Below, piece by piece: positions 1,686 through 60,508 of a DNA stretch of 64,000 nt. The notes under the pieces are model-generated. The model saw only the letters and a list, made by a program, of their open reading frames with translations, ran no database searches and was not told where the DNA came from. Within the stretch, counting starts at the first letter, position 1. Every line of letters begins with the position of its first letter. The DNA comes from Podarcis bocagei. Taxonomy: Eukaryota. The translations under genes were made by a program, and so were the position numbers. Where the stretch lies: NCBI GenBank assembly GCA_964188305.1, contig OZ076893.1; one strand, 5' to 3'.

Positions 1686-2064
1686 TTCTAGGGCAGGGGG
1701 GAAGAAAGCTCTATTTGTGCTCTTGGCTTGTGCTCTTGAAGTTAACATCTATCATTCATGGGCAGGTCACTTCACAGGGATTTTTCAAAATCAAATATCC
1801 ATGTATGAATTAGACCTACCCAATCTCCAGGAGTGATTGTGCAAATTGGGAACAGCAACTTTTTGTCAGTAAAGATGCAGAAAAATACATCTCAGGCTTA
1901 TCATTAAAACGCTGTCAAAGAAAGAAGGGTCCTTCAGAAAACGGACATCTAGTACCAATATAGTTGGTTTTCTGAATCACCTAGTCACTTGAGTTAACTT
2001 TTTCTTCCTCATTGGCCCACATTAGTAAGGGCCAGGGTAGTTTAAAACTTAGGGATGCCTGCTA

Positions 2065-2408
2065 AAAGGGACCCCTGGACATTAGGTCCAGTCATGACCA
2101 ACTCTGGGGTTGCAGCGCTCATCTCGCTTTATTTTCCGAGGGAGCTGGTGTACAGCTTCTGGGTCATGTGGCCAGCATGACTAAGCTGCTTCTGGCGAAC
2201 CAGAGCAGTGCACGAAACACCATTTACCTTCCCGCCGGAGGGCTACCTATTTATCTACTTGCGCTTTGATGTGCTTTTGAACTGCTAGGTTGGCAGGAGC
2301 AGGGACCAAGCAACGGGAGCTCACCCCGTTGCGGGGATTTGAACCGCCTACCTTCTGATCGGCAAGTCCTAGGCTCTGTGGTTTAACCCACAGCGCCACC
2401 CGCGTCCC
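2065..2408 (-). mobile_element. Sauria SINE (Squam1/POMSINE-like)
   Basis: Minus strand begins with a tRNA-like head, GGGACGCGGGTGGCGCTGTGG (A box)...GGTTCAAATCC (B box); body closely matches copies at 29710 and 60125. Confidence 0.88.
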
Positions 2409-3177
2409 CACTAGTAAGGGCCAGGGTCGTTTAAGACTTAGGGATGCGTGCTATACTTCCCCAATTTGGGGATCTCCACATGCTGTTGGCCCATGACTCC
2501 CGCCATCTCTGACCATTGACTATGGTATCTTGTGCCCATAGAGGTTGGGAGCCTATTGGCATCTCGAGGCAACTGGGTTGGGAAAGTCTGGGTTAGAGTG
2601 TCAGATTAGGACTGTTGAGTGAACTTGGGCCAGTGACTACCACTTAACCTAATAGATTTCAATAGAGGATAAAATGGGATAGTGGTTGTGGAGCCCCAAT
2701 TCCTTGGAAGACAGGTGAGATATATAATTAGACCGCAATGATACATACACATACCTGGGAGCAAGCTCAGCTGAGCAGTCAGGTAAAGGACTCCATGTGT
2801 GTTTATTTATTCATATCTAAAATATTACACGTCACCTTTTCTCATATTGTTCAAACAATATTCTCATATTGATAAGCAAAGAAGTCAGACAGAATTCCTA
2901 TTTACCAAATGCAAACATTTTTAGTGATGCACAAATGACTCCAATACACAAAATTGTGTGTATAGCATATTCTTTCACAGATGCTGTCATTTTCCTTTTG
3001 CTTGAATGCCTTGCATTGAAGAGTGAAGTGTCCATATGCTCTTGCTCTTTGGTTTCAAACACGTTATTGTTCATTACTAAGGATGGAAAGATAAGTCAGT
3101 TTCTGCTCCCTCAGTTTCTCATCTTGAACTCAGATCTCCACATTTCTGCAACAATTTTCAATTATCATCATAATCAC

Positions 3178-3585
3178 TGTGATGGGATGATTAGCTGCTT
3201 GTGCGTAAAATCGTGGTTCCTCAGAGTTTGTGCAACTCCACAAACCTCTGTGTGTGACAGAGCTCCTCAAACATGTCTGCCCTAGTCACTTGTAGATTCC
3301 GACAGTGGTTGTTTTCGGAATCGTTTCCAGCATAAGAGCTCCTTAACGGAAACCCGCCTTCTGGACTCACGGCGTGACAGTTTCCGGCGAGGCGTGGGTC
3401 TCCCTATGGGAGCTTCAGATACCTCCCCACTGTTCTCGCTGGAAGTGTCTCTGAGCCCTCCCACCTGCTCGCATTCCCTCAAAGATCCACTCCTCCCCCT
3501 GCTGGTTCCTGCTTCAGCTGTTGAGTCTCTGTCTACCTCCCTGAGCCCCTCCACCACCTGTTCCTCCGATGGCAGTTCCCTGACA
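3178..3585 (-). repeat. 3' LTR of Gypsy element
   Basis: Direct repeat of 8220-8627; differs only at 3218/8260 and 3276/8318 (T vs C on + strand). Confidence 0.97.
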
Positions 3586-5591
3586 TCCACCTCCCCTCCA
3601 GGGCCCCCCTCACCCCCTCCCGTTTCCCCTCCTCTGGGAGGTGAGGAGGTAAAACCCCGAAAAGAATCTTCTTCATCTTCAGACGTCTCGAACAATTCCC
3701 TCCATCGATCGCCGTCCTGGCTCGCTGAATCCTCCTCCTCCTCGGAATCTGTGAACCCCTCCAACTCCTCTTCTTCGTCGGTGGTGGCAAAGTATTCCCT
3801 CCGGAACCTCGCTACAGGCTGAGGTTTACGTGGGAACCTCTGATGAAAAGTTTCTATTAAAACCTCGTCATTGACATCCTCTGCCCTGACCCAGGTGTTT
3901 TCTGACTCCGGTTCCCCTTCCCACATTACCAAATACTCTACTTGATCTCCCTTCCACCTGGAATCGAGGATCTCCGCTACATGGTAGCTTTGTTCCCTTT
4001 CCTCCATTGCTGGTCCCCGAGTGACCCTCCCTTCTCTGTCCCCTTTATACAGTGACAGCAATGACCTGTGGAAAACTGGGTGCAGCTTCATGTGGTTCGG
4101 TAACCGGAGTCTGAAAGCCACTGGATTGACCTGTTGTGTGATTTCAAATGGGCCCAATCTTTTGGGTCTTAACTTCTTACAACCCCCTTTGAAGGGTAAC
4201 CCTTGGGTTGACAGCCACACTTGGTCCCCCACCCTAATGGTTTCACCTTCTCTCCTGTGTTTGTCTGCCTGCCTCTTATATTCCTCCTTGGCCCTGTCTA
4301 AGTTAAGTTGGAGCTGGCGATGGATCGCTTCCATTTCTTCTACGAACTGTTCGGCAGCTGGAACGCTCCATCTCTCCCCTTCCCCCCCTGGGAAAGCCCT
4401 GGGATGGCACCCGTAATTAGCCAAAAAGGGGCTCATCCCCGTGGACACGTTCTCCGCATTGTTGTAGGCAAATTCTGCCAATGCCAACTTCTCCACCCAA
4501 TCATTCTCTCTGTCATTAACATAACACCTCAAATATTGCTGGAGGATGCCATTGGCTCTTTCCGCCTGCCCATTGGTTTCAGGATGCCGGGCAGTCGAGA
4601 AATTAACCTCTACATGCAGTAAGCTCATGAGCTTCCTCCAGAACCTGGAAGTAAATTGTTTCCCTCGGTCTGAAACCACCCTCAAGGGGGCGCCATGCAA
4701 CCTAAACACATTTTCTACAAACAATTTAGCTGTTTCTTCTGCCGTGACCGCATGTGAGCAGGCTATAAAGTGTGCCATTTTGGTTAACAGGTCTACCACA
4801 ACCATGATGGCTGTTTTCCCTCTGGACCTTGGCAGATCAGTCATGAAATCTATGGCCACTGCTTCCCATGGTCTTTCTGGTGTGGGTAGCGGTTCTAACA
4901 ACCCTGCCGGCGCCCGCCTTTCCCCTTTGGCTCGCTGGCATTGGTCACAACTCCTCACATACTCCCGCACGTCTTCCCTGACCTTAGGCCACCAAAATTC
5001 CCTGGTCACCAGCCACATGGTTCTGTGTTGCCCAAAATGCCCCGCTGTGGGGCTATCGTGCAGCTGCTTGAGTACCTTCCCCCTCAACTCTCCTTCAGGT
5101 ATATATAACGCTCCCTTGTAGTACAACGCCCCGTTTCTCTCCTCAAAACCTCCGGGTTTATCTCCCTCCCTCCTGAGTCCCCTGAGTTTGTCCTGTGCGT
5201 ATTCATCGTTCTCCGTTCCCTCTACCAGTTCTCTTTGCCCCACCAATGCCGCCCCACACACCCAGCGGTCCTCTGGAATGACATGTCTCTCTTCGGGTGC
5301 TCCCTCTCCCTCCAAATATTCAGGTTTACGTGAGAGAGCATCCGCCCTAACGTTCTCTGGGCCTGGCACATAACAAATCTCAAAGTTAAATCTGGAGAAC
5401 TCCTGGGCCCATCTCAACTGCCGTTGGTTGAGCACTCGTGCCGTTCTCCAATACTCTAGGTTCTTGTGGTCCGTGCACACTTGCACCTTATGTTGTGCGC
5501 CAATTAGCAGGTGCCTCCATCTCCGAAAAGCCTCATGAATAGCAAGAAGTTCTCGATCGTACACCGTGTAGTTCCTCTCGGATTTAAGCAC
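3282..5591 (-). CDS. pol: pol, 3' part: RNase H C-terminal part, integrase (HHCC, DDE, GPF), chromodomain, acidic tail, LTR-encoded basic tail
   Basis: RH motifs RELLA, TDHKNL, ADALSR; zinc finger HDSPTAGH...CDQC; DFMTD, VSDRG, ERAN; GPF; chromodomain YHVAEILDSR...YLVMWEG...NTWV. Out of frame with the 5' part of pol at about 5588. Confidence 0.93.
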   Translation of the reverse strand: MLKSERNYTVYDRELLAIHEAFRRWRHLLIGAQHKVQVCTDHKNLEYWRTARVLNQRQLRWAQEFSRFNFEICYVPGPENVRADALSRKPEYLEGEGAPEERHVIPEDRWVCGAALVGQRELVEGTENDEYAQDKLRGLRREGDKPGGFEERNGALYYKGALYIPEGELRGKVLKQLHDSPTAGHFGQHRTMWLVTREFWWPKVREDVREYVRSCDQCQRAKGERRAPAGLLEPLPTPERPWEAVAIDFMTDLPRSRGKTAIMVVVDLLTKMAHFIACSHAVTAEETAKLFVENVFRLHGAPLRVVSDRGKQFTSRFWRKLMSLLHVEVNFSTARHPETNGQAERANGILQQYLRCYVNDRENDWVEKLALAEFAYNNAENVSTGMSPFLANYGCHPRAFPGGEGERWSVPAAEQFVEEMEAIHRQLQLNLDRAKEEYKRQADKHRREGETIRVGDQVWLSTQGLPFKGGCKKLRPKRLGPFEITQQVNPVAFRLRLPNHMKLHPVFHRSLLSLYKGDREGRVTRGPAMEEREQSYHVAEILDSRWKGDQVEYLVMWEGEPESENTWVRAEDVNDEVLIETFHQRFPRKPQPVARFRREYFATTDEEEELEGFTDSEEEEDSASQDGDRWRELFETSEDEEDSFRGFTSSPPRGGETGGGEGGPGGEVDVRELPSEEQVVEGLREVDRDSTAEAGTSRGRSGSLRECEQVGGLRDTSSENSGEVSEAPIGRPTPRRKLSRRESRRRVSVKELLCWKRFRKQPLSESTSD
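3586..3599 (-). other. Polypurine tract (plus-strand primer)
   Basis: GGAGGGGAGGTGGA on the minus strand, abutting the 3' LTR. Confidence 0.85.
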
Positions 5592-7248
5592 ACGGTCTCC
5601 ACTCTGACTCCTCCTTCCCTGGCTGCAGAAGAAGCACCGCCCCTATGGCTCTGTCTGATGCGTCTGTTTCGACTCTCATCTTTTTTTGTAAATCCACATG
5701 CAGAAGTTGTTCTTCAGAGGCGAAGGCCCTTTTTAGCTCCTCAAAAGCTCGCTCCGCCTCCTCAGTCCAAACAAATTTCTTCTTACTGCTGAGACAGTCC
5801 GTTATGGGCGCCGTCAGGTGGGCAAAGTTTCGGATGAACTTACGGTAAAAGTTCCCAAACCCTAGGAACCTCTGCACATCCTTCTTTGTTTTGGGTGTTT
5901 TCCATTCCAGCACTGCCTGGACCTTGCCGGGATCCATAGCCAATCCCTTGTCTGACAGGCGGTACCCCAGGAACTCCACCTCCTTGGTATGAAACTGACA
6001 CTTCTCCAGTTTCACCCACAGCCGGTTGGCTAGCAGCCTGCGCAACACTTCTCTGACGTCTCTCACATGCTGCTCCTCATTCTCAGAATACACCAACACG
6101 TCATCCAGGAAGGCCACACAATTCTTGTAAAGCAAAGGCCCTAGTACGTGGTTCATCAGCGATTGAAAGCACGCTGAGCCTGCTTGTAATCCAAATGGCA
6201 TAACGAGATATTCAAATGCCCCCAAAGGGGTGAACATGGTGGTTTTCCATTCATCCCCTTTCCTTATACGTATCAGATTGTACGCCCCCCTTAGGTCCAG
6301 CTTGGTAAAAATCTTTCCCTTCCGCACCCTGTTCAAAATGTCATCTATTCTAGGCATGGGAAAGGCCAATGGTTCTGACACTGCGTTTAAGGCCCGAAAG
6401 TCACACACAAGTCTCGGCTTGTCCGTGTTTTTCTTATCCACAAAAAACACTGGACTACCTCCCACCGCTCTTGACTCTCTGATGAAACCCCTCTTCAGGT
6501 TCTTGTCAATGAACTCTCGTAACTCCTGCATTTCTCTGTCTGACATGGCATACAACTTGCCTGCGGGGAGCTGCGCCCCAGGCAGTAAATTGATTTGACA
6601 ATCGAAGGGTCTATGCGGGGGTAGTTGGTCAGCTTCCCTTTCGCTGAACACATCACTGAGATCTGCGTATTGTCGTGGTACCTTCACCTTCTCCGTTACT
6701 TCTGTCCCTGCTAGGGTAGCTTGGGCTCCTGCTGAACCCTTTCCCTCCCTGCAGTGTTCTAAGCAATGTGCGGAACCAAAGGAAACCACTCTCTGATGCC
6801 AGCCCACCAGTGGATCATGTAACGCCAGCCAGCTCATCCCCAAAATAATGGGAGCCCCTCCCAAGGTGGCCACATTAAACGCTATCAGTTCTGTGTGCCT
6901 TGCCACCTTCATTATCATTGGGACGGTCTGCAAGCTGACTTCCCCTCCCAACAGCTCCCTGCCATCGATCGTGGTCACCTGTAGGGGGTTGCTTAAAGGG
7001 ATCGTCTGTATCTGGTGTTCAGCTGCAAACTCTTTGCTCATGAAATTGCAGGAGCTGCCTGAGTCCAACAGCGCCTTAATCTTCAGAGGGTATCCGTTTT
7101 GCAACTCCAGTGACACTTCTATCACTAGGGCAGGTTTGGGAGGTTCTGGCGTGGGCACTTTCACTGCTCTTTGGCCTGGCTGCTGTGCCCCGACGGTGGC
7201 AGCCAGGCGTTGGCTTTTACTTGCTCCGATATCTCTTCCACTCCTCCC
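5584..7248 (-). CDS. pol: pol, 5' part: aspartic protease, reverse transcriptase, RNase H N-terminal part (-1 frame relative to gag; frame open from 7248)
   Basis: LLDSGS protease motif; RT motifs KLDLRGAYNLIRI, MPFGL, FLDD; RH TDAS; terminates prematurely at WRPCA*. Confidence 0.93.
   Translation of the reverse strand, partial: GRSGRDIGASKSQRLAATVGAQQPGQRAVKVPTPEPPKPALVIEVSLELQNGYPLKIKALLDSGSSCNFMSKEFAAEHQIQTIPLSNPLQVTTIDGRELLGGEVSLQTVPMIMKVARHTELIAFNVATLGGAPIILGMSWLALHDPLVGWHQRVVSFGSAHCLEHCREGKGSAGAQATLAGTEVTEKVKVPRQYADLSDVFSEREADQLPPHRPFDCQINLLPGAQLPAGKLYAMSDREMQELREFIDKNLKRGFIRESRAVGGSPVFFVDKKNTDKPRLVCDFRALNAVSEPLAFPMPRIDDILNRVRKGKIFTKLDLRGAYNLIRIRKGDEWKTTMFTPLGAFEYLVMPFGLQAGSACFQSLMNHVLGPLLYKNCVAFLDDVLVYSENEEQHVRDVREVLRRLLANRLWVKLEKCQFHTKEVEFLGYRLSDKGLAMDPGKVQAVLEWKTPKTKKDVQRFLGFGNFYRKFIRNFAHLTAPITDCLSSKKKFVWTEEAERAFEELKRAFASEEQLLHVDLQKKMRVETDASDRAIGAVLLLQPGKEESEWRPCA
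7150..7221 (-). promoter_or_regulatory. Putative -1 ribosomal frameshift signal (heptamer, 6-nt spacer, H-type pseudoknot)
   Basis: Lies in the gag/pol overlap; perfect 10-bp stem GCCTGGCTGC/GCAGCCAGGC (7208-7199 / 7183-7174); loop GGGCAC is complementary to downstream GTGCCC (7158-7153). Confidence 0.72.
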
Positions 7249-8174
7249 TCAACAGCTCCCACCATCCCTTGCCATTCCTTCCTCTGGGGGCAGACAGTGG
7301 CAAAGTGACCTGGCTGTTGGCAGAGATAGCACTTCCGGGCGCCTTTTCCCTCCTTCCTACCCCCTTCACTGGGCTTTGAAACTGCGCGCGCGCGCGCTGT
7401 TCCGATTTCCATCGGCTCTGCCGGCGGGAAAGCTGGCTCAGGAATGTCTGGAATGCGGAACTCCTTCCAACGTTCCCCCTTACCTTCCCGCCTCTCCAAG
7501 GCTCTCGCCTCCTGGCGCGCTCCTATGGTCAGCGCAGATTTGGTCAGCTGATCCATAGAAACCGCTCTGGGGCTCCGGGACAGTTCGTCTTTCACAGCCG
7601 AAGAAAGACCTTCTTCAAATAGCATCTGAATAGGTGCCGCCGATAAATCCCACCCCAATCTGTGAACCAGCATGGTGAACTCAGTCCAGTACTCACGGAC
7701 AGATCGGCTTCCCTGCTTGCAAGCCATTAACTGTCTGCGCACCACTCCCTCCTCAATATCGCTGGAAAACATGAGATCCATTGCACGAAAGAACTTCATG
7801 GTGTCCTTTAGGACGTCATTATGCGTTGCCATCAGGGGTCTAACCCAGTCCCTCGCCCCTTTTTCAAGATGCCCAATCACAAAAGCCACTCGCGATTCCT
7901 CATCAGGGAATTCATCAAACTGCACATTGAGGGCATATTGCATCTCTGTTCTAAAGGCATGGTAGTCCTTGGGGTCCCCCCCAAATTTCTGCACCAATCC
8001 TGGTACCTTTCTGGTGAACTGGGTGGCTCTCCCCTTCTTGTCTGCATCCTGAGCCCTTCTCTCCTCAAGCCTCGCCGTCTGCAGCGCCAATTGGATTTCC
8101 AACACTCTGTACCTTTCTTCCAAGCTTGGACCAGCTCCAACCCCTGCTCCTTCGGTTCCGGCTGGGTCGCTCAT
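7161..8174 (-). CDS. gag: gag (retrotransposon capsid domain plus CCHC zinc knuckle)
   Basis: Starts MSDPAGTEG at the first ATG after the PBS; FGGDP motif, QGSRSVREY MHR-like motif, PMEIG motif, CYLCQQPGHFATVC knuckle; frame intact. Confidence 0.92.
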   Translation of the reverse strand: MSDPAGTEGAGVGAGPSLEERYRVLEIQLALQTARLEERRAQDADKKGRATQFTRKVPGLVQKFGGDPKDYHAFRTEMQYALNVQFDEFPDEESRVAFVIGHLEKGARDWVRPLMATHNDVLKDTMKFFRAMDLMFSSDIEEGVVRRQLMACKQGSRSVREYWTEFTMLVHRLGWDLSAAPIQMLFEEGLSSAVKDELSRSPRAVSMDQLTKSALTIGARQEARALERREGKGERWKEFRIPDIPEPAFPPAEPMEIGTARARAVSKPSEGGRKEGKGARKCYLCQQPGHFATVCPQRKEWQGMVGAVEGGVEEISEQVKANAWLPPSGHSSQAKEQ

Positions 8175-8206
8175 GATGCCTTCTCCTGCACAGGCAGCGT
8201 ACAGAG

Positions 8207-8217
8207 ACTGTCGGAAT
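8207..8217 (-). other. Primer-binding site of self-priming (Tf1/sushi) type
   Basis: ATTCCGACAGT begins 2 nt after the 5' LTR, lacks the TGG of tRNA-type PBSs, and is the exact complement of 11 nt inside the LTR (8348-8338). Confidence 0.8.
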
Positions 8218-8219
8218 GC

Positions 8220-8627
8220 TGTGATGGGATGATTAGCTGCTTGTGCGTAAAATCGTGGTCCCTCAGAGTTTGTGCAACTCCACAAACCTCTGTGTGTGAC
8301 AGAGCTCCTCAAACATGCCTGCCCTAGTCACTTGTAGATTCCGACAGTGGTTGTTTTCGGAATCGTTTCCAGCATAAGAGCTCCTTAACGGAAACCCGCC
8401 TTCTGGACTCACGGCGTGACAGTTTCCGGCGAGGCGTGGGTCTCCCTATGGGAGCTTCAGATACCTCCCCACTGTTCTCGCTGGAAGTGTCTCTGAGCCC
8501 TCCCACCTGCTCGCATTCCCTCAAAGATCCACTCCTCCCCCTGCTGGTTCCTGCTTCAGCTGTTGAGTCTCTGTCTACCTCCCTGAGCCCCTCCACCACC
8601 TGTTCCTCCGATGGCAGTTCCCTGACA
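8220..8627 (-). repeat. 5' LTR of Gypsy element
   Basis: TGTCAGG...CATCACA on the minus strand; direct repeat of 3178-3585. Confidence 0.97.
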
Positions 8628-12657: not shown

Positions 12658-13168
12658 TTGTTGTTGTTTAGTCATTTAGTCGTGTCCGACTCTTCGTGAC
12701 CCCATGGACCAGAGCACGCCAGGCACTCCTATCTTCCACTTCCTCCCGCAGTTTGGTCAGACTCATGTTTGTGGCTTCGAGAACACTATGCAACCATCTC
12801 AGCCTCTGTCGTCCCCATCTCCTTGTGCCCTCCATCTTTCCCAACATCAGGGTCTTTTCCAGGGAGTCTTCTCTTCTCATGAGGTGGCCAAAGTATTGGA
12901 GCCTCAGCTTCACGATCTGTCCTTCCAGTGACCACTCAGGGCTGATTTCCTTAAGAATGGATGCGTTTGATCTTCTTGCAGTCCATGGGACTCTCAAAAG
13001 TCTCCTCCAGCACCATAATTCAAAAGCATCAATTCTTCGGCGATCAGCCTTCTTTATGGTCCAGCTCTCACTTCCATACATCACTACTGGGAAAACCATA
13101 GCTTTAACTATACAGACCTTTCTTGGCAAGGTGATGTCTCTGCTTTTGAAGATGCTGTCTAGGTTTGC
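12658..13168 (-). mobile_element. Bov-B (RTE LINE) 3' fragment
   Basis: ORF 12668-13129 encodes KAMVFPVVMYGSESWTIKKA...DAFELWCWRRLLRVPWTARRSN...LEKTLMLGK, the characteristic Bov-B C-terminus; (CAA)n tail. Confidence 0.93.
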
Positions 13169-15351: not shown

Positions 15352-15836
15352 TGCAGAGACATCACCTTGCCAACAAAGGTCTGTATAGTTAAAGCCATGG
15401 TTTTCCCAGCAGTGATGTATGGAAGTGAGAGCCGGACCATAAGGAAGGCTGATCGCCGAAGAATTGATGCTTATGAATTATGGTGCTGGAGGAGACTCTT
15501 GAGAGTCCCATGGACTGCAAGAAGATCAAACGCATCCATTCTTAAGGAAATCAGCCCTGAGTGCTTACTGGAAGGACAGATCGTGAAGCTGAGGCTCCAG
15601 TACTTTGGCCACCTCATGAGAAGAGAAGACTCCCTGGAAAAGACCCTGATGTTGGGAAAGATGGAGGGCACAAGGAGAAGGGGACAACAGAGGACGAGAT
15701 GGTTGGACAGTGTTGTCGAAGCTACCAGCATGAGTTTGACCAAACTGCGGGAGGCAGTGGAAGACAGGAGGGCCTGGCATGCTCTGGTCAATGGGGTCAC
15801 GAAGTCGGACACGACTAAACGACTAAACAACAACAA
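15352..15836 (+). mobile_element. Bov-B (RTE LINE) 3' fragment
   Basis: Same C-terminal peptide (ORF 15367-15858); ends CGACTAAACAACAACAA. Confidence 0.93.
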
Positions 15837-25952: not shown

Positions 25953-26750
25953 AAGGTACCTGTCAGGGAACTGCCATCAGAGCTGGAAGCGGAGGGAAGG
26001 CTCCAAAGGGATGGCGGAGAGGGTCCCAGTAGGGAGAGAGGGAGCCCGTCTGCTGGGGAAGGAAATCAGTGTAACACCAGTAGAGAAGGGGGGCAGATGG
26101 GGGAATTGGGGAGGAGGCTCCAAGACTCCTCGCTGCAGACCAGCGGAGAGAGTACGGGTACTCCACTGCCCACACTCTCCCTGCGCAGAAGACTTCCGCG
26201 CAGGGAGAGTAGGAGGAGACTTGGCGTCAAGGAACTTTTGTGCTGGAAGAAGTTTAAGAAACGCCCACTGACGGATTCTGCCAGCGACTGAGACAGTCAC
26301 GATGCTGGAGGCTGTTCAGTCAGAAAGGGTTAACCAGGTAACCTAGCCCGGAGTGGCGGCAACTTATGCACGAGCAACCCCTAAACCCATTACAGTACCC
26401 CTGCCCGTACGGGCCAGTCGTGTCCGACTCTAGGGTGGTGCGCCCATCTCACTTAAGAGGCCGGGGGCCAGCGCTGTCCGGAGACACTTCCGGGTCACGT
26501 GGCCAGCGTGACGAAGCTGCTCTGGCGAGCCAGCACCAGCGCAGCACACGGAAACGCAGTTTACCTTCCCGCTAGAAAGTGGTCCCTATTTATCTACTTG
26601 CACTTGGGGTTGCTTTCGAACTGCTAGGTGAGCAGGAGCTAGGACCGAAAGACGGGAGCTCACCCCACTGCGGGGATTCGAACCACTGACCATACGATCG
26701 GCAAGTCCTAGGCGCTGAGGTTTTACCCACAGCGCCACCCGCGCCACCCC
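25953..26750 (-). mobile_element. Sauria SINE (different subfamily) interrupted near its 3' tail by a solo LTR
   Basis: SINE body 26395-26750 with B box GGTTCGAATCC on the minus strand; tail remnant AAGGTACC at 25953-25960; TSD TGAACAGCTTA at 25942-25952 and 26751-26761. Confidence 0.85.
25961..26394 (+). mobile_element. Solo Gypsy LTR related to the full-length element
   Basis: TGTCAGGGAACTG...ATTACA; TSD GTACC (25956-25960, 26395-26399); open frame 25962-26291 homologous to the LTR-encoded pol tail. Confidence 0.93.
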
Positions 26751-29709: not shown

Positions 29710-30066
29710 AAAGTAAAGGTAAAGGGACCCCTGACCATTAGGTCCAGTCATGGCCGACTCTGGGGTTGCAGCGCTCATCTTGCTTTATTGGCTGAGGGAG
29801 CCGGCATACAGCTTCCGGGTCATGTGGCCACCATGACTAAGCCGCTTCTGGTGAACCAGAGCAGTGCACGGAAATGCCGTTTACCTTACCTTACCTTTCC
29901 TTTCCTATTTATCTACTTGCACTTTGATGTGCTTTTGAACTGCTAGGTTGACAGGAGCAGGGACCAAGCAATGGGAGCTCACCCCATCGCGGGGATTCGA
30001 ACCGCCAACCTTCTGATCAGCAAGTCCTAGGCTCTGTGGTTTAACCCACAGTGCCACCCGCGTCCC
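29710..30066 (-). mobile_element. Sauria SINE
   Basis: Homologous to the 2065 copy; (ACCTTT)n tail appears as AAAGGTAAAGG on +; B box GGTTCGAATCC. Confidence 0.9.
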
Positions 30067-31013
30067 AGCAAAGTCTTGAATTTAGCAGCAGACTGGTGAA
30101 GCACTAGAGCAGCAAGTGTTGTGTACTGTCTGCTTACAAAAGCTGTGATGCAGCTTTAGACACGAGCCCTGCATGTGTGGGTGCTCTTCCATACAAATCT
30201 CCAGTACTCCTTCTAGGCAGGGCAACTGGCCCCACAAAAAATGTGCCCCTTAAAACTTCTGACTGCCTTCAGTTGCCAAAGATGATCAGAGAGAGGCTTC
30301 GTTCAAAGAAGCAACTGAACATATCAATGTTATTCTGTGAAGTGAATATTTTGTACTGGAAGTCGTAATGCTTCTCATTGCAATTGCTGGTTTAAAGGAC
30401 CAGCAACGTCTGATGTCTCCCTGTCTCCCTCTCTCTTCTTCACACACAAATTCCAAGCAGAGCAACGAAAGGAACTAGGGTTTTTTTTATTAAAAAATAA
30501 AAATCAAGTGAAGGTCACAAAATGCCTGGCTCTCAGGAGGGAAATGTTTTAAAAAGCAGCTTTAATGATAATTAACTGACAATGATTGATAACCAGTAAT
30601 TAGAGGCACAGCTCCAGAGCTGTGCCATTCATTTTATGTGGTTGGGGTGTTTTGTTTTTGTCTGCTTATTTCTCTAGCATAATACTATAATGCAGAAGTG
30701 GACGGACATCAGGTTTGTCGGAGCTACTTTGTTTTTTGCAAGAAACTCAAGAACCTGAATCAGAGCCTAGTGCAAAGGACACGCCATAAGAATTAAAGGA
30801 CAGCGTGCCTTTGAGCCTAGGGAGTCATTTTCAACATCAGCTCTGAAATGGGCTCCTGGTCCTTCCGCAAAATAGTCCACGTTTGCTCTCTACATTTCAG
30901 CACCCTACATTAGGTGGGGAAAGTCCTGTTGTTGTCGTTGTTAAACAATTGCTGATTTACTGCAAATCACCCAGTGATCTATCAGTCGATCATGATCTAC
31001 CTTCTGCCCTACC

Positions 31014-57071: not shown

Positions 57072-57503
57072 TGTAATGTGTATGGGTTGCTCGTGCATAA
57101 GTTGCCGCCTCTCCAGGCTTTGTTGCCTTGCTAAACCTTTCAGTCTGGGCAGCCCTTCACTTCGTGGCTGCCTCAGTCGCTAGCAGAATCCGTCAGTGGG
57201 CGTTTCTTAAATCTTTTCCAACATAAAAGTTGTTTGACACCCAGTCTCCTCCTACTCTCTCTGCGCGGAAGTCTTCTGCGCAGGGTGGGTGTGGGTAGTG
57301 GAGGACCCGTGCTCTCCCCGCTGGTGTCCAGTGAAGAGTCCTGGAGCCCTCTCGCCGATTCCCCCATCAGCCCCTCTAAATCCCTGGTGTTGCGCTGATT
57401 TGCTTCCCCATCTGCGGAGCTGCCTCTCTCCCTGCTGGGCCCTTCTCCAGCATCATTTGAGAGCCTTCCCTCCACCTCTAGCTCCACTGTCAGTTCCCTG
57501 ACA
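57072..57503 (-). mobile_element. Solo Gypsy LTR, sister of 25961-26394
   Basis: TGTCAGGGAACTG...ATTACA on the minus strand; TSD GGCAG (57067-57071, 57504-57508); open frame 57502-57173. Confidence 0.93.
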
Positions 57504-60124: not shown

Positions 60125-60474
60125 AAAAGGTAAAGGGCAAAGGGACCCCTGACAATTAGGTCCAGTCGTGACCGACTCTGGGGTTGCAGCGCTCATCTCG
60201 CTTTATTGGCCGAGGGAGCCGGCATACAGCTTCCGGGTCATGTGGCCAGCATGACTAAGCCGCTTCTGGAGAACCAGAGCAGTGCACAGAAACGCCGTTT
60301 ACCTTCCCGCTGGAATTTATCTACTTGCACTTTGATGTGCTTTCAAACTGCTAGGTTGGCAGGAGCAGGGACTGAGCAACGGGAGCACACCCTGTCGCGG
60401 GGATTCGAACCACCGACCTTCTGATTGGCAAGTCCTAGGCTCTGCGGTTTAACCCACAGCGCCACCCGCGTCCC
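60125..60474 (-). mobile_element. Sauria SINE
   Basis: Homologous to the 2065 and 29710 copies; 16-bp TSD ACCTCAATGAGGCTTA / ACTTCAGTGAGGCTTA. Confidence 0.9.
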
Positions 60475-60508
60475 ACTTCAGTGAGGCTTACTTCTGTGTA
60501 AATGTGAT

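What the first reader, a model, noticed from the sequence alone, without database searches (positions are those of the whole stretch)
26181..26291. Codon-level signature of purifying selection inside solo LTRs
Seen: both solo LTRs (25961-26394 and 57072-57503) keep the frame starting at LTR nt 2 (VREL...) open for 109 codons, versus 100 in the full element, a frame-preserving 27-nt difference. Their last 36 codons (26181-26288 vs 57283-57176), aligned by hand, show 8 synonymous third-position changes (AGG/AGA, CTT/CTG, GGC/GGT, AAG/AAA twice, TTG/TTA, TGC/TGT, GCC/GCT) and only 2 conservative replacements (E/Q, K/R). The motif RRESRRR..VK[EQ]LLCWK[KR]F[KR]K.PL..S.SD* is shared with the more divergent full element. 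Inference: the LTR-encoded peptide was under protein-level selection in the active source lineages, so the read-through is functional rather than accidental.
Basis: seen in the sequence. Interest (0 to 1): 0.75.

Follow-up and report, generated by a model that had tools for sequence, protein, structure and literature searches.

The report
Lizard retrotransposon integrase tail inside LTR
A lizard retrotransposon's integrase gene runs on into its own terminal repeat, and the last 35 amino acids encoded there were kept by protein-level selection while the element was jumping, likely as a nuclear-entry or chromatin-docking signal, so the thousands of leftover solo repeats carry a fossil of that selection.

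Summary
The counts are right (8 synonymous and 2 replacement codons in the last 36). Both solo LTRs come from a lizard Tf1/sushi-type chromovirus. Its pol frame passes the chromodomain, an acidic spacer and the polypurine tract, crosses the inferred U3 and stops 22 nt after the self-primer. Between lineages, pN/pS over the terminal 36 codons is 0.06-0.14; in the F lineages the 27-codon core matches RT and integrase. Among copies of solo family B it is about 1. Selection therefore acted in replicating ancestors, not on solo LTRs. The last 8 codons overlap the self-primer and are partly dual-constrained; the 27 before them have free synonymous sites. The block holds the only bipartite-NLS pattern in the 1,328-aa pol examined. 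Two more distant chromovirus families in this genome also read into their LTRs and end in basic blocks, one with the HMGN nucleosome-binding core RRSARL. Function is untested. About a third of sampled older 3' junctions are out of frame. Plant CRM elements set the precedent for LTR-encoded integrase tails; ten literature searches found none for vertebrates. Verdict: new variant of a known kind.

The parts
25961..26394 (+). Solo LTR, lineage A (434 nt, TG...CA, 5-bp TSD)
25962..26291 (+). LTR-encoded frame, 109 codons + stop: fossil of the integrase C-terminal tail; here no start codon and no upstream pol
26184..26288 (+). Conserved terminal 35-codon basic block
26211..26264 (+). Bipartite-NLS-type pattern (two basic clusters, 10-residue spacer holding LLCW); pattern recalled, function untested
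26267..26277 (+). 11-nt self-primer, complementary to the PBS of full A-type copies; inferred U3/R border and transcription start
26174..26210 (+). Inverted repeat, strong only in lineage A (-17.0 kcal/mol vs -7.5 in B and -1.9 in F); not the cause of the conservation
57072..57503 (-). Solo LTR, lineage B (432 nt, 5-bp TSD); frame 57502-57173; self-primer 57187-57197
3178..8627 (-). Full chromodomain Ty3/gypsy element, lineage F; LTRs differ at 2 positions; pol is split into two frames inside RNase H in this copy
8220..8627 (-). 5' LTR of the full element; self-primer 8338-8348
8207..8217 (-). [quoted passage not shown]
7164..8174 (-). gag (Retrotrans_gag, Ty3_capsid, zf-CCHC)
5587..7248 (-). 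pol 5' part: protease, RT, start of RNase H
3282..5642 (-). pol 3' part: RNase H, integrase, SH3, chromodomain (3837-3986), acidic spacer, polypurine tract and 100 LTR-encoded codons; stop at 3282-3284
3178..3585 (-). 3' LTR of the full element, carrying the in-frame integrase tail; self-primer copy 3296-3306

Best explanation
The two solo LTRs are leftovers of a lizard Tf1/sushi-type chromovirus whose pol frame runs through the polypurine tract into the 3' LTR, and the terminal 35 codons show purifying selection between lineages but not among solo copies; this block likely serves as the integrase's nuclear localisation signal. SHOWN: read-through in frame with the chromodomain; low pN/pS between lineages; neutral drift among solos; an 11-nt LTR/PBS complementarity inside the last 8 codons. 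INFERRED: that 11-mer is the self-primer and marks the start of R, so the tail spans all of U3. Each reverse transcription copies U3 from the RNA's 3' end into both LTRs (textbook), which is how a coding signature reaches solo LTRs. The mature integrase would be zinc finger-core-SH3-chromodomain-long acidic disordered linker-basic tip. The tip would bind importin-alpha through its two basic clusters and carry the pre-integration complex into the nucleus. The conserved LLCW spacer would offer a docking surface for a host factor, as the linker of the Ty1 bipartite NLS does.
For: Net between-lineage pN/pS for the terminal 36 codons: 0.06-0.10 (unweighted sites) or 0.09-0.14 (transition-weighted) for A1-B, A1-C, A1-D, B-C, B-D, F1-F2 and F1-F3; 0.00 for F2-F3. 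Within 30 B copies: 0.77 or 1.08. Private changes in B copies 10N:3S vs 2N:9S between A and B, Fisher p=0.012; pooled with A1 17N:7S, p=0.009. In F lineages the 27-codon core has pN/pS 0.00-0.08, like RT (0.05-0.09) and integrase (0.07-0.08), with pS not reduced: 0.46 vs 0.32 in RT for F1-F3. Arg AGR/CGN and Ser AGY/TCN codon switches occur at identical residues. In frame with the chromodomain: 14 of 14 plus 28 of 30 F junctions and 18 of 30 A/B-type junctions. A degenerate codon pattern for the motif hits 7,735 sites vs 24 for the reversed control. In 39 of 40 sampled sites the stop lies exactly 17 codons after the pattern start, and five LTR length classes all keep the frame. The only bipartite-NLS pattern and the most basic 20-mer of one 1,328-aa F pol lie in this block; the pattern is kept in 140 of 144 parsed copies, of 150. 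Precedent: Ty1 integrase has a C-terminal bipartite NLS whose linker binds AC40 (PMC7459421).
Against: There is no functional test. The NLS pattern is a recalled regular expression and common in basic sequence. The related G family ends in a basic run plus LLSWC without the bipartite pattern there. 12 of 30 A/B-type junctions, including 5 of the 6 closest to solo A, 9 of 26 G junctions and 3 of 16 H elements are out of frame before or at the LTR. The slips lie at different places and the G ones do not form a clade, which fits decay or assembly error, but dispensability in cis is not excluded. The A1-A2 and A1-A3 terminal estimates have intervals spanning 1. Pairwise comparisons share branches and are not independent. 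The predicted primer:PBS duplex dominates in only 4 of 7 folded leaders.
Confidence: 0.5

Rival explanations
1. Same coding constraint, but the basic tip is a chromatin tether or targeting module: an arginine anchor for the nucleosome acidic patch, or a CR-motif-like host-factor contact, working beside the chromodomain. This is not exclusive with nuclear import.
For: Family H in this genome encodes RRSARL inside its 3' LTR in 12 of the 13 read-through elements, of 16 fetched, with pN/pS 0.11-0.15 for the basic block on 4-5 changes. Two Anolis entries end in RRSARI. RRSARLSA is the HMGN core that binds the acidic patch (PMC12487698). The finding's family has P/S-RRESR, with the same R..R spacing as RRSAR and RRSSR. 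The plant CR motif lies in the 3' LTR and is linked to centromere targeting (PMC3059260).
Against: The finding's family has an almost invariant Glu (34 of 35) where HMGN has Ser; that an acidic residue there blocks HMGN binding is recalled, not checked. No Pfam or PDB match to the tail. Insertion-site bias was not analysed.
Confidence: 0.3
2. The tail is translated and selected for another integrase-side job, such as RNA/cDNA binding, particle assembly or protein stability, with acidic linker and basic tip acting as a charge-balanced disordered arm.
For: AlphaFold2 gives a folded chromodomain, a disordered linker and only a low-confidence helix at the LLCW core. The acidic-then-basic layout recurs in three families with unrelated linker sequences.
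Against: Strict retention of spacing and of L-L-x-W suggests a specific partner rather than charge alone.
Confidence: 0.13
3. The conservation is DNA/RNA-level only (core promoter, self-primer, hairpin), and the open frame is a by-product of a T-poor, purine-rich U3.
For: The self-primer lies in the last 8 codons, where pS is mostly lower (0.10-0.25 vs 0.19-0.48 in the larger within-family comparisons). The Leu-Leu codons sit 27-32 nt upstream of the primer, at the recalled TATA position, and L/F swaps keep them T-rich. The Trp codon is 23-24 nt upstream of the primer in both the A/F and G families.
Against: Strong third-position bias (entropy 0.56/0.26/0.99 at positions 1/2/3 in the 18 codons outside the search pattern). 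pS is as high as in RT. Codon-family switches occur at fixed residues. The hairpin is lineage-specific. Primer variants differ only by synonymous or conservative changes. Sequence after the stop shows pN/pS 0.3-1.6 with wide intervals in all but the two sparsest between-lineage comparisons.
Confidence: 0.04
4. The host selects on peptides made from the solo LTRs themselves.
For: The frame is still open in 25 of 30 A-type and 30 of 30 B-type copies.
Against: Those copies were picked for closeness to the query and are young. pN/pS within B is about 1 and private changes are mostly replacements. The frame has no start codon of its own and lies upstream of the inferred transcription start.
Confidence: 0.02

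Closest known systems
Tf1/sushi group chromoviruses (GyDB Fungi/Vertebrates cluster, V-clade)
   Same: Chromodomain at the integrase C-terminus, CCHC gag, gag and pol in different frames, PBS complementary to an LTR-internal stretch (bioRxiv 10.1101/2022.12.06.519325, PMC6317226, PMC4600332, PMC2774666; passages read).
   Different: Most relatives end soon after the chromodomain (median 12 aa in 81 parsed of 122 proteins). Here 180-360 aa follow, 100-218 of them LTR-encoded.
Plant CRM group A centromeric retrotransposons (CR motif / PTD)
   Same: [quoted passage not shown]
   Different: The CR motif takes the place of the chromodomain. Here a chromodomain is kept upstream of the PPT and the LTR motif is an extra, basic module in a self-priming vertebrate element. 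Sequence similarity to the CR motif was not tested.
Ty1 integrase C-terminal bipartite NLS with AC40-binding linker
   Same: Two basic clusters with a conserved linker at the extreme integrase C-terminus (PMC7459421; abstract and passages read).
   Different: Ty1/copia order, 29-aa linker; functional analogy only.
HMGN/Dsup nucleosome-binding motif (RRSARLSA)
   Same: Core RRSARL in the LTR-encoded tail of family H; RRSARI in two Anolis entries (PMC12487698, passages read).
   Different: The finding's own family has RRESR, not RRSAR; binding is untested in all.

Membership tests
Ty3/gypsy LTR retrotransposon | LTR-gag-PR-RT-RH-IN-LTR order with TSD | tested here: met
   Pfam order; LTR pair and 5-bp TSD
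Chromovirus | Chromodomain at integrase C-terminus | tested here: met
   PF00385 E=8e-12; HP1 chromodomains are the best PDB matches
Tf1/sushi group | PBS complementary to an LTR-internal self-primer rather than to a tRNA | tested here: met
   Exact 10-13-nt match starting 2-3 nt after the LTR in 11 of 16 copies with a 5' LTR, five primer variants each with its own PBS; 8 further stretches held only one LTR; similar 10-12-nt matches in G and H
Tf1/sushi group | Three-duplex 'pretzel' leader structure | tested here: inconclusive
   Primer:PBS pairing probability 0.95-0.97 in 4 of 7 leaders, 0.42, 0.02 and 0.01 in the others; side duplexes not tested for covariation
Tf1/sushi group / V-clade | Placement in an RT-IN tree with Tf1, sushi-ichi and Amn elements | not tested
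   Reference sequences were not on hand; nearest named hits are lizard, fish and frog chromodomain elements
Plant CRM group A | Pol extends into the 3' LTR | tested here: met
Plant CRM group A | CR motif in place of the chromodomain; tRNA-Met PBS | tested here: not met
   Chromodomain present upstream of the PPT; self-complementary PBS
Classical bipartite NLS | Two basic residues, 10-residue spacer, 3 of 5 basic (pattern recalled) | tested here: met
   A, B and F tails; 140 of 144 parsed copies; absent from the G and P0010 motif ends
Classical bipartite NLS | Importin-alpha-dependent import | not testable with these tools
   needs a reporter or binding assay
HMGN-like acidic-patch motif | RRSAR(L) core in the finding's own family (A/B/F) | tested here: not met
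   RRESR/RREAR/RSERR in 35 sampled LTRs
HMGN-like acidic-patch motif | RRSAR(L) core in related family H | tested here: met
   12 of 13 read-through elements, of 16 fetched
HMGN-like acidic-patch motif | Nucleosome binding through the acidic patch | not testable with these tools
   needs EMSA or structure

The most novel reading that the evidence does not exclude
Lizard Tf1/sushi chromoviruses have turned the U3 of their LTR into the coding region for a second chromatin-engaging module. A long acidic tether ends in an arginine anchor (the HMGN core RRSARL in family H and RRSARI in Anolis, RRESR...LLCW in the finding's family) that docks the intasome on nucleosomes alongside the chromodomain: a vertebrate counterpart, by convergence, of the plant CR motif.
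Probability: 0.3. Interest if true: 0.72.

Novelty: new variant of a known kind. Interest (0 to 1): 0.52.

Why it matters
How vertebrate chromoviruses enter the nucleus and choose targets was not addressed in the papers found. This gives a short, natural, selection-validated peptide to test, and a comparison set of three families in one genome with different tips, one matching the HMGN core. It also shows one stretch of DNA serving as promoter, reverse-transcription primer and integrase C-terminus at once, and it warns that apparent purifying selection in solo LTRs can be inherited from the active element and need not mean host co-option.

Tried and rejected
Host selection on solo LTRs: rejected. 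The antisense frame sharing third positions also scores low (0.08-0.35 for the terminal block); rejected as a shadow because it has stops in A and B and first/second-position synonymous switches fit only the sense frame. Hairpin at 26174-26210: lineage-specific. A frameshifted replicating clade in G: off-frame copies scatter over trees with many near-zero branches, so not supported, with limited power. RNA: no RNA holder listed. Four raw RNA runs of the same species label gave 78-118 reads each, mostly from related copies, with no usable start or end peak (one 6-molecule start at 26294 coincides with the end of alignable sequence); this is uninformative on expression, TSS or polyA site. One search found nothing because its length setting excluded 1,328-aa proteins. 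hhalign of the tail alignment with P0010 and P0033 aligned only the chromodomain and acidic part; their terminal-motif likeness is by eye, although hmmsearch covered profile positions 1-246 for P0010. No Pfam or PDB match for the tail. AlphaFold2 model mean pLDDT 57, not used for fold search. The ESM Atlas gave no result. Earlier-finding look-ups were empty. Literature searches listed no paper on an LTR-encoded integrase tail in vertebrate chromoviruses. The library lacks most subscription papers, including Butler et al. 2001 (seen only as a citation), and Repbase/Dfam were not searchable. G-family terminal block: only 1N/2S changes, too few to judge.

Full report
Observation. Solo A (25961-26394, +) and solo B (57072-57503, -) are 81% identical LTRs with 5-bp target-site duplications. 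From LTR nt 2 both are open for 109 codons. Codons 74-109 differ at 8 synonymous and 2 replacement codons, as reported; codons 1-73 differ at 13 and 23. A scan-corrected null gives 6 of 4000 hits with all 59 differences, or 56 of 4000 at matched density. The pair alone is therefore suggestive (p about 0.002-0.014) and needed outside copies.

What the element is. The window holds a full element at 3178-8627 (-): gag with CCHC, protease, RT, RNase H, integrase, SH3 and chromodomain; its LTRs differ at two positions. In this copy pol is split inside RNase H. The 3' frame continues from the chromodomain through an acidic spacer and the polypurine tract into the 3' LTR for 100 codons. The closest named proteins are Podarcis muralis entries, so the host is a lizard. 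The PBS is not tRNA-like: it is the exact complement of a 10-13-nt stretch inside the LTR in 11 of 16 copies with a 5' LTR, with five primer variants each matched by its own PBS. The five misses had no exact match of 10 nt or more at that site. Part of this covariation may be built into replication itself (recalled). [quoted passage not shown] I infer that R starts at 26267, that the tail covers all of U3, and that the stop lies 22 nt into R. Folding supported the duplex in 4 of 7 leaders.

Selection test. I used pairwise counts on natural copies and net divergence between groups. Copies came from searches of this genome, each scoring only the best 40 or 150 of 2,400-7,100 candidates, grouped by distance, with LTR mates, duplicates and gapped copies dropped as listed in the script. 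For the terminal 36 codons, net pN/pS is 0.06-0.10 unweighted or 0.09-0.14 transition-weighted in seven comparisons (A1-B, A1-C, A1-D, B-C, B-D, F1-F2, F1-F3), with upper bootstrap bounds of 0.34 or less, and 0.00 for F2-F3. A1-A2 (0.21-0.29) and A1-A3 (0.03-0.05) have too few changes to bound. Within 30 B copies (29 with an exact TSD) it is 0.77 or 1.08, and within A1 0.42 or 0.58 with wide intervals. Private changes in B are 10N:3S against 2N:9S between A and B (p=0.012; pooled with A1 p=0.009). The linker (codons 1-73) is weakly constrained: 0.4-0.9 in the larger comparisons, lower between close A sub-lineages. In F lineages the 27-codon core matches RT and integrase in pN/pS and has no deficit of synonymous change. 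Single-copy comparisons of older A/B-type elements are noisier: 0.14-0.41 in ten, 0.79 and 1.15 in the two closest pairs, one failed. These comparisons share branches; A-B, C-D (0.21) and F1-F3 are separate contrasts.

Breadth in the genome. A degenerate codon pattern for seven motif residues hits 7,735 sites against 24 for its control. I picked 40 of the first 100 listed to cover codon variants. Of these, 39 were LTRs, all with the stop 17 codons after the pattern start; 34 had the motif in frame with LTR nt 2, in five length classes that differ by multiples of three (two classes rest on one element each); five were single off-frame copies. In the 18 codons outside the pattern, entropy by codon position is 0.56/0.26/0.99 (35 copies).

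The RNA/promoter rival. It holds in part. pS is mostly lower in the 8 codons over the self-primer and R. The Leu-Leu codons sit at the recalled TATA distance and stay T-rich even through L/F swaps. It cannot explain the arginine block, where AGR/CGN and AGY/TCN switches keep the residue, and the local hairpin is strong only in lineage A.

Results against. 12 of 30 A/B-type 3' junctions are out of frame, including 5 of the 6 nearest to solo A (the set includes near-identical duplicates on one contig and two rearranged loci). The 1-2-nt slips lie at different places, mostly in purine or C runs. Young F junctions are in frame in 14 of 14 and 28 of 30. Expression, start and end sites could not be shown.

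Relatives. Among 122 chromovirus proteins examined, 81 could be parsed. The median tail after the chromodomain is 12 aa; of 13 tails over 120 aa, ten are Podarcis entries, one is unnamed (P0010) and two are mis-parsed fusions; two Anolis entries have 116 aa. Two further families were checked in DNA here. G (LTR about 784 nt) reads 215-218 codons into the LTR in the same register and ends in a basic run plus LLSWC just upstream of a 10-12-nt self-primer; 9 of 26 junctions are off frame and scattered on the tree; pN/pS over 215 codons is 0.41. H reads about 110-116 codons into the LTR in 13 of 16 fetched elements (chosen by ORF length) and carries RRSARL in 12, with basic-block pN/pS 0.11-0.15 on few changes. 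The Anolis tails end in RRSARI; their LTR position is inferred from a PPT-like peptide only.

Mechanism. AlphaFold2 gives a folded chromodomain, a disordered linker and a low-confidence helix at KELLCWKR. The tip holds the only bipartite-NLS pattern and the most basic 20-mer of the one F pol scanned (pattern recalled). I favour nuclear import (0.5), by analogy with the Ty1 integrase bipartite NLS whose linker binds AC40 (PMC7459421; abstract and passages). A chromatin tether is the main rival (0.3), because family H carries the HMGN core that binds the nucleosome acidic patch (PMC12487698; passages), although the finding's family has Glu where HMGN has Ser. That the block was translated and selected in active lineages I put at about 0.93.

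Comparison and novelty. An integrase tail encoded in the 3' LTR is established for plant CRM group A elements, where the CR motif takes the chromodomain's place (PMC3605345, PMC3059260; passages). V-clade chromoviruses are known from amniotes (PMC2774666; passages), and an LTR-structure survey modelled Sushi LTRs with no hit for 'ORF' or 'open reading frame' in its text (PMC3601003; passages). Ten searches (listings only, except the papers named) showed no account of such a tail in vertebrate elements. The library is partial, repeat databases were not searchable and no supplements were read. Verdict: a real, well-supported coding signature inherited by solo LTRs; a new variant of a known architecture; function untested; interest 0.52.

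Noticed in passing
L234-L245, L214-L233 (family G, LTR about 784 nt): Second chromovirus family whose pol reads 215-218 codons into the 3' LTR and ends in a basic run plus LLSWC just upstream of a self-primer; 9 of 26 junctions are off frame by 1-2-nt slips in the purine run.
   Followed up: partly
L276-L291, L261-L275 (family H): Third family with a single long gag-pol frame; its LTR-encoded tail carries the HMGN core RRSARL and stops about 45 nt before the self-primer; sub-lineages differ by a frame-keeping 18-nt indel.
   Followed up: partly
P0173, P0176 (Anolis entries), P0177, P0010 (unnamed): Other long acidic-then-basic integrase tails: RRSARI in the Anolis entries, an R-rich end in P0177, an LLCWKRR end in P0010.
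   Followed up: no
F1 vs F2 LTRs (L061-L090 vs L091-L097): pS is 0.03 over codons 1-64 but 0.37 over codons 65-100, suggesting recombination between lineages inside U3.
   Followed up: no
G000:C19: This contig holds a large share of the listed hits for several families, many near-identical; looks like a repeat-rich, amplified chromosome.
   Followed up: no
P0030 (Podarcis entry named 'Gla domain-containing protein'): Its N-terminal part matches this LTR frame, so a gene model has absorbed the LTR; artefact or exonisation not checked.
   Followed up: no
window 3286-3822 (+): The antisense shadow frame is open for 178 codons in the full element but has stops in solos A and B.
   Followed up: partly
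window 2059-2409, 26572-26748, 29715-30067, 60133-60475: Dispersed short repeat family, one copy just downstream of solo A; recalled as Sauria-SINE-like, not tested.
   Followed up: no
window 12692-13143 and 15353-15804: 452-nt inverted pair, 94% complementary, 2.2 kb apart; probably two copies of a repeat in opposite orientation.
   Followed up: no
81 hits such as P0045, P0097: Fish-type relatives (19 of 38 proteins parsed) have an RGRP-type basic run right after the chromodomain, where the lizard families have acidic sequence; the basic signal may have moved into the LTR.
   Followed up: partly
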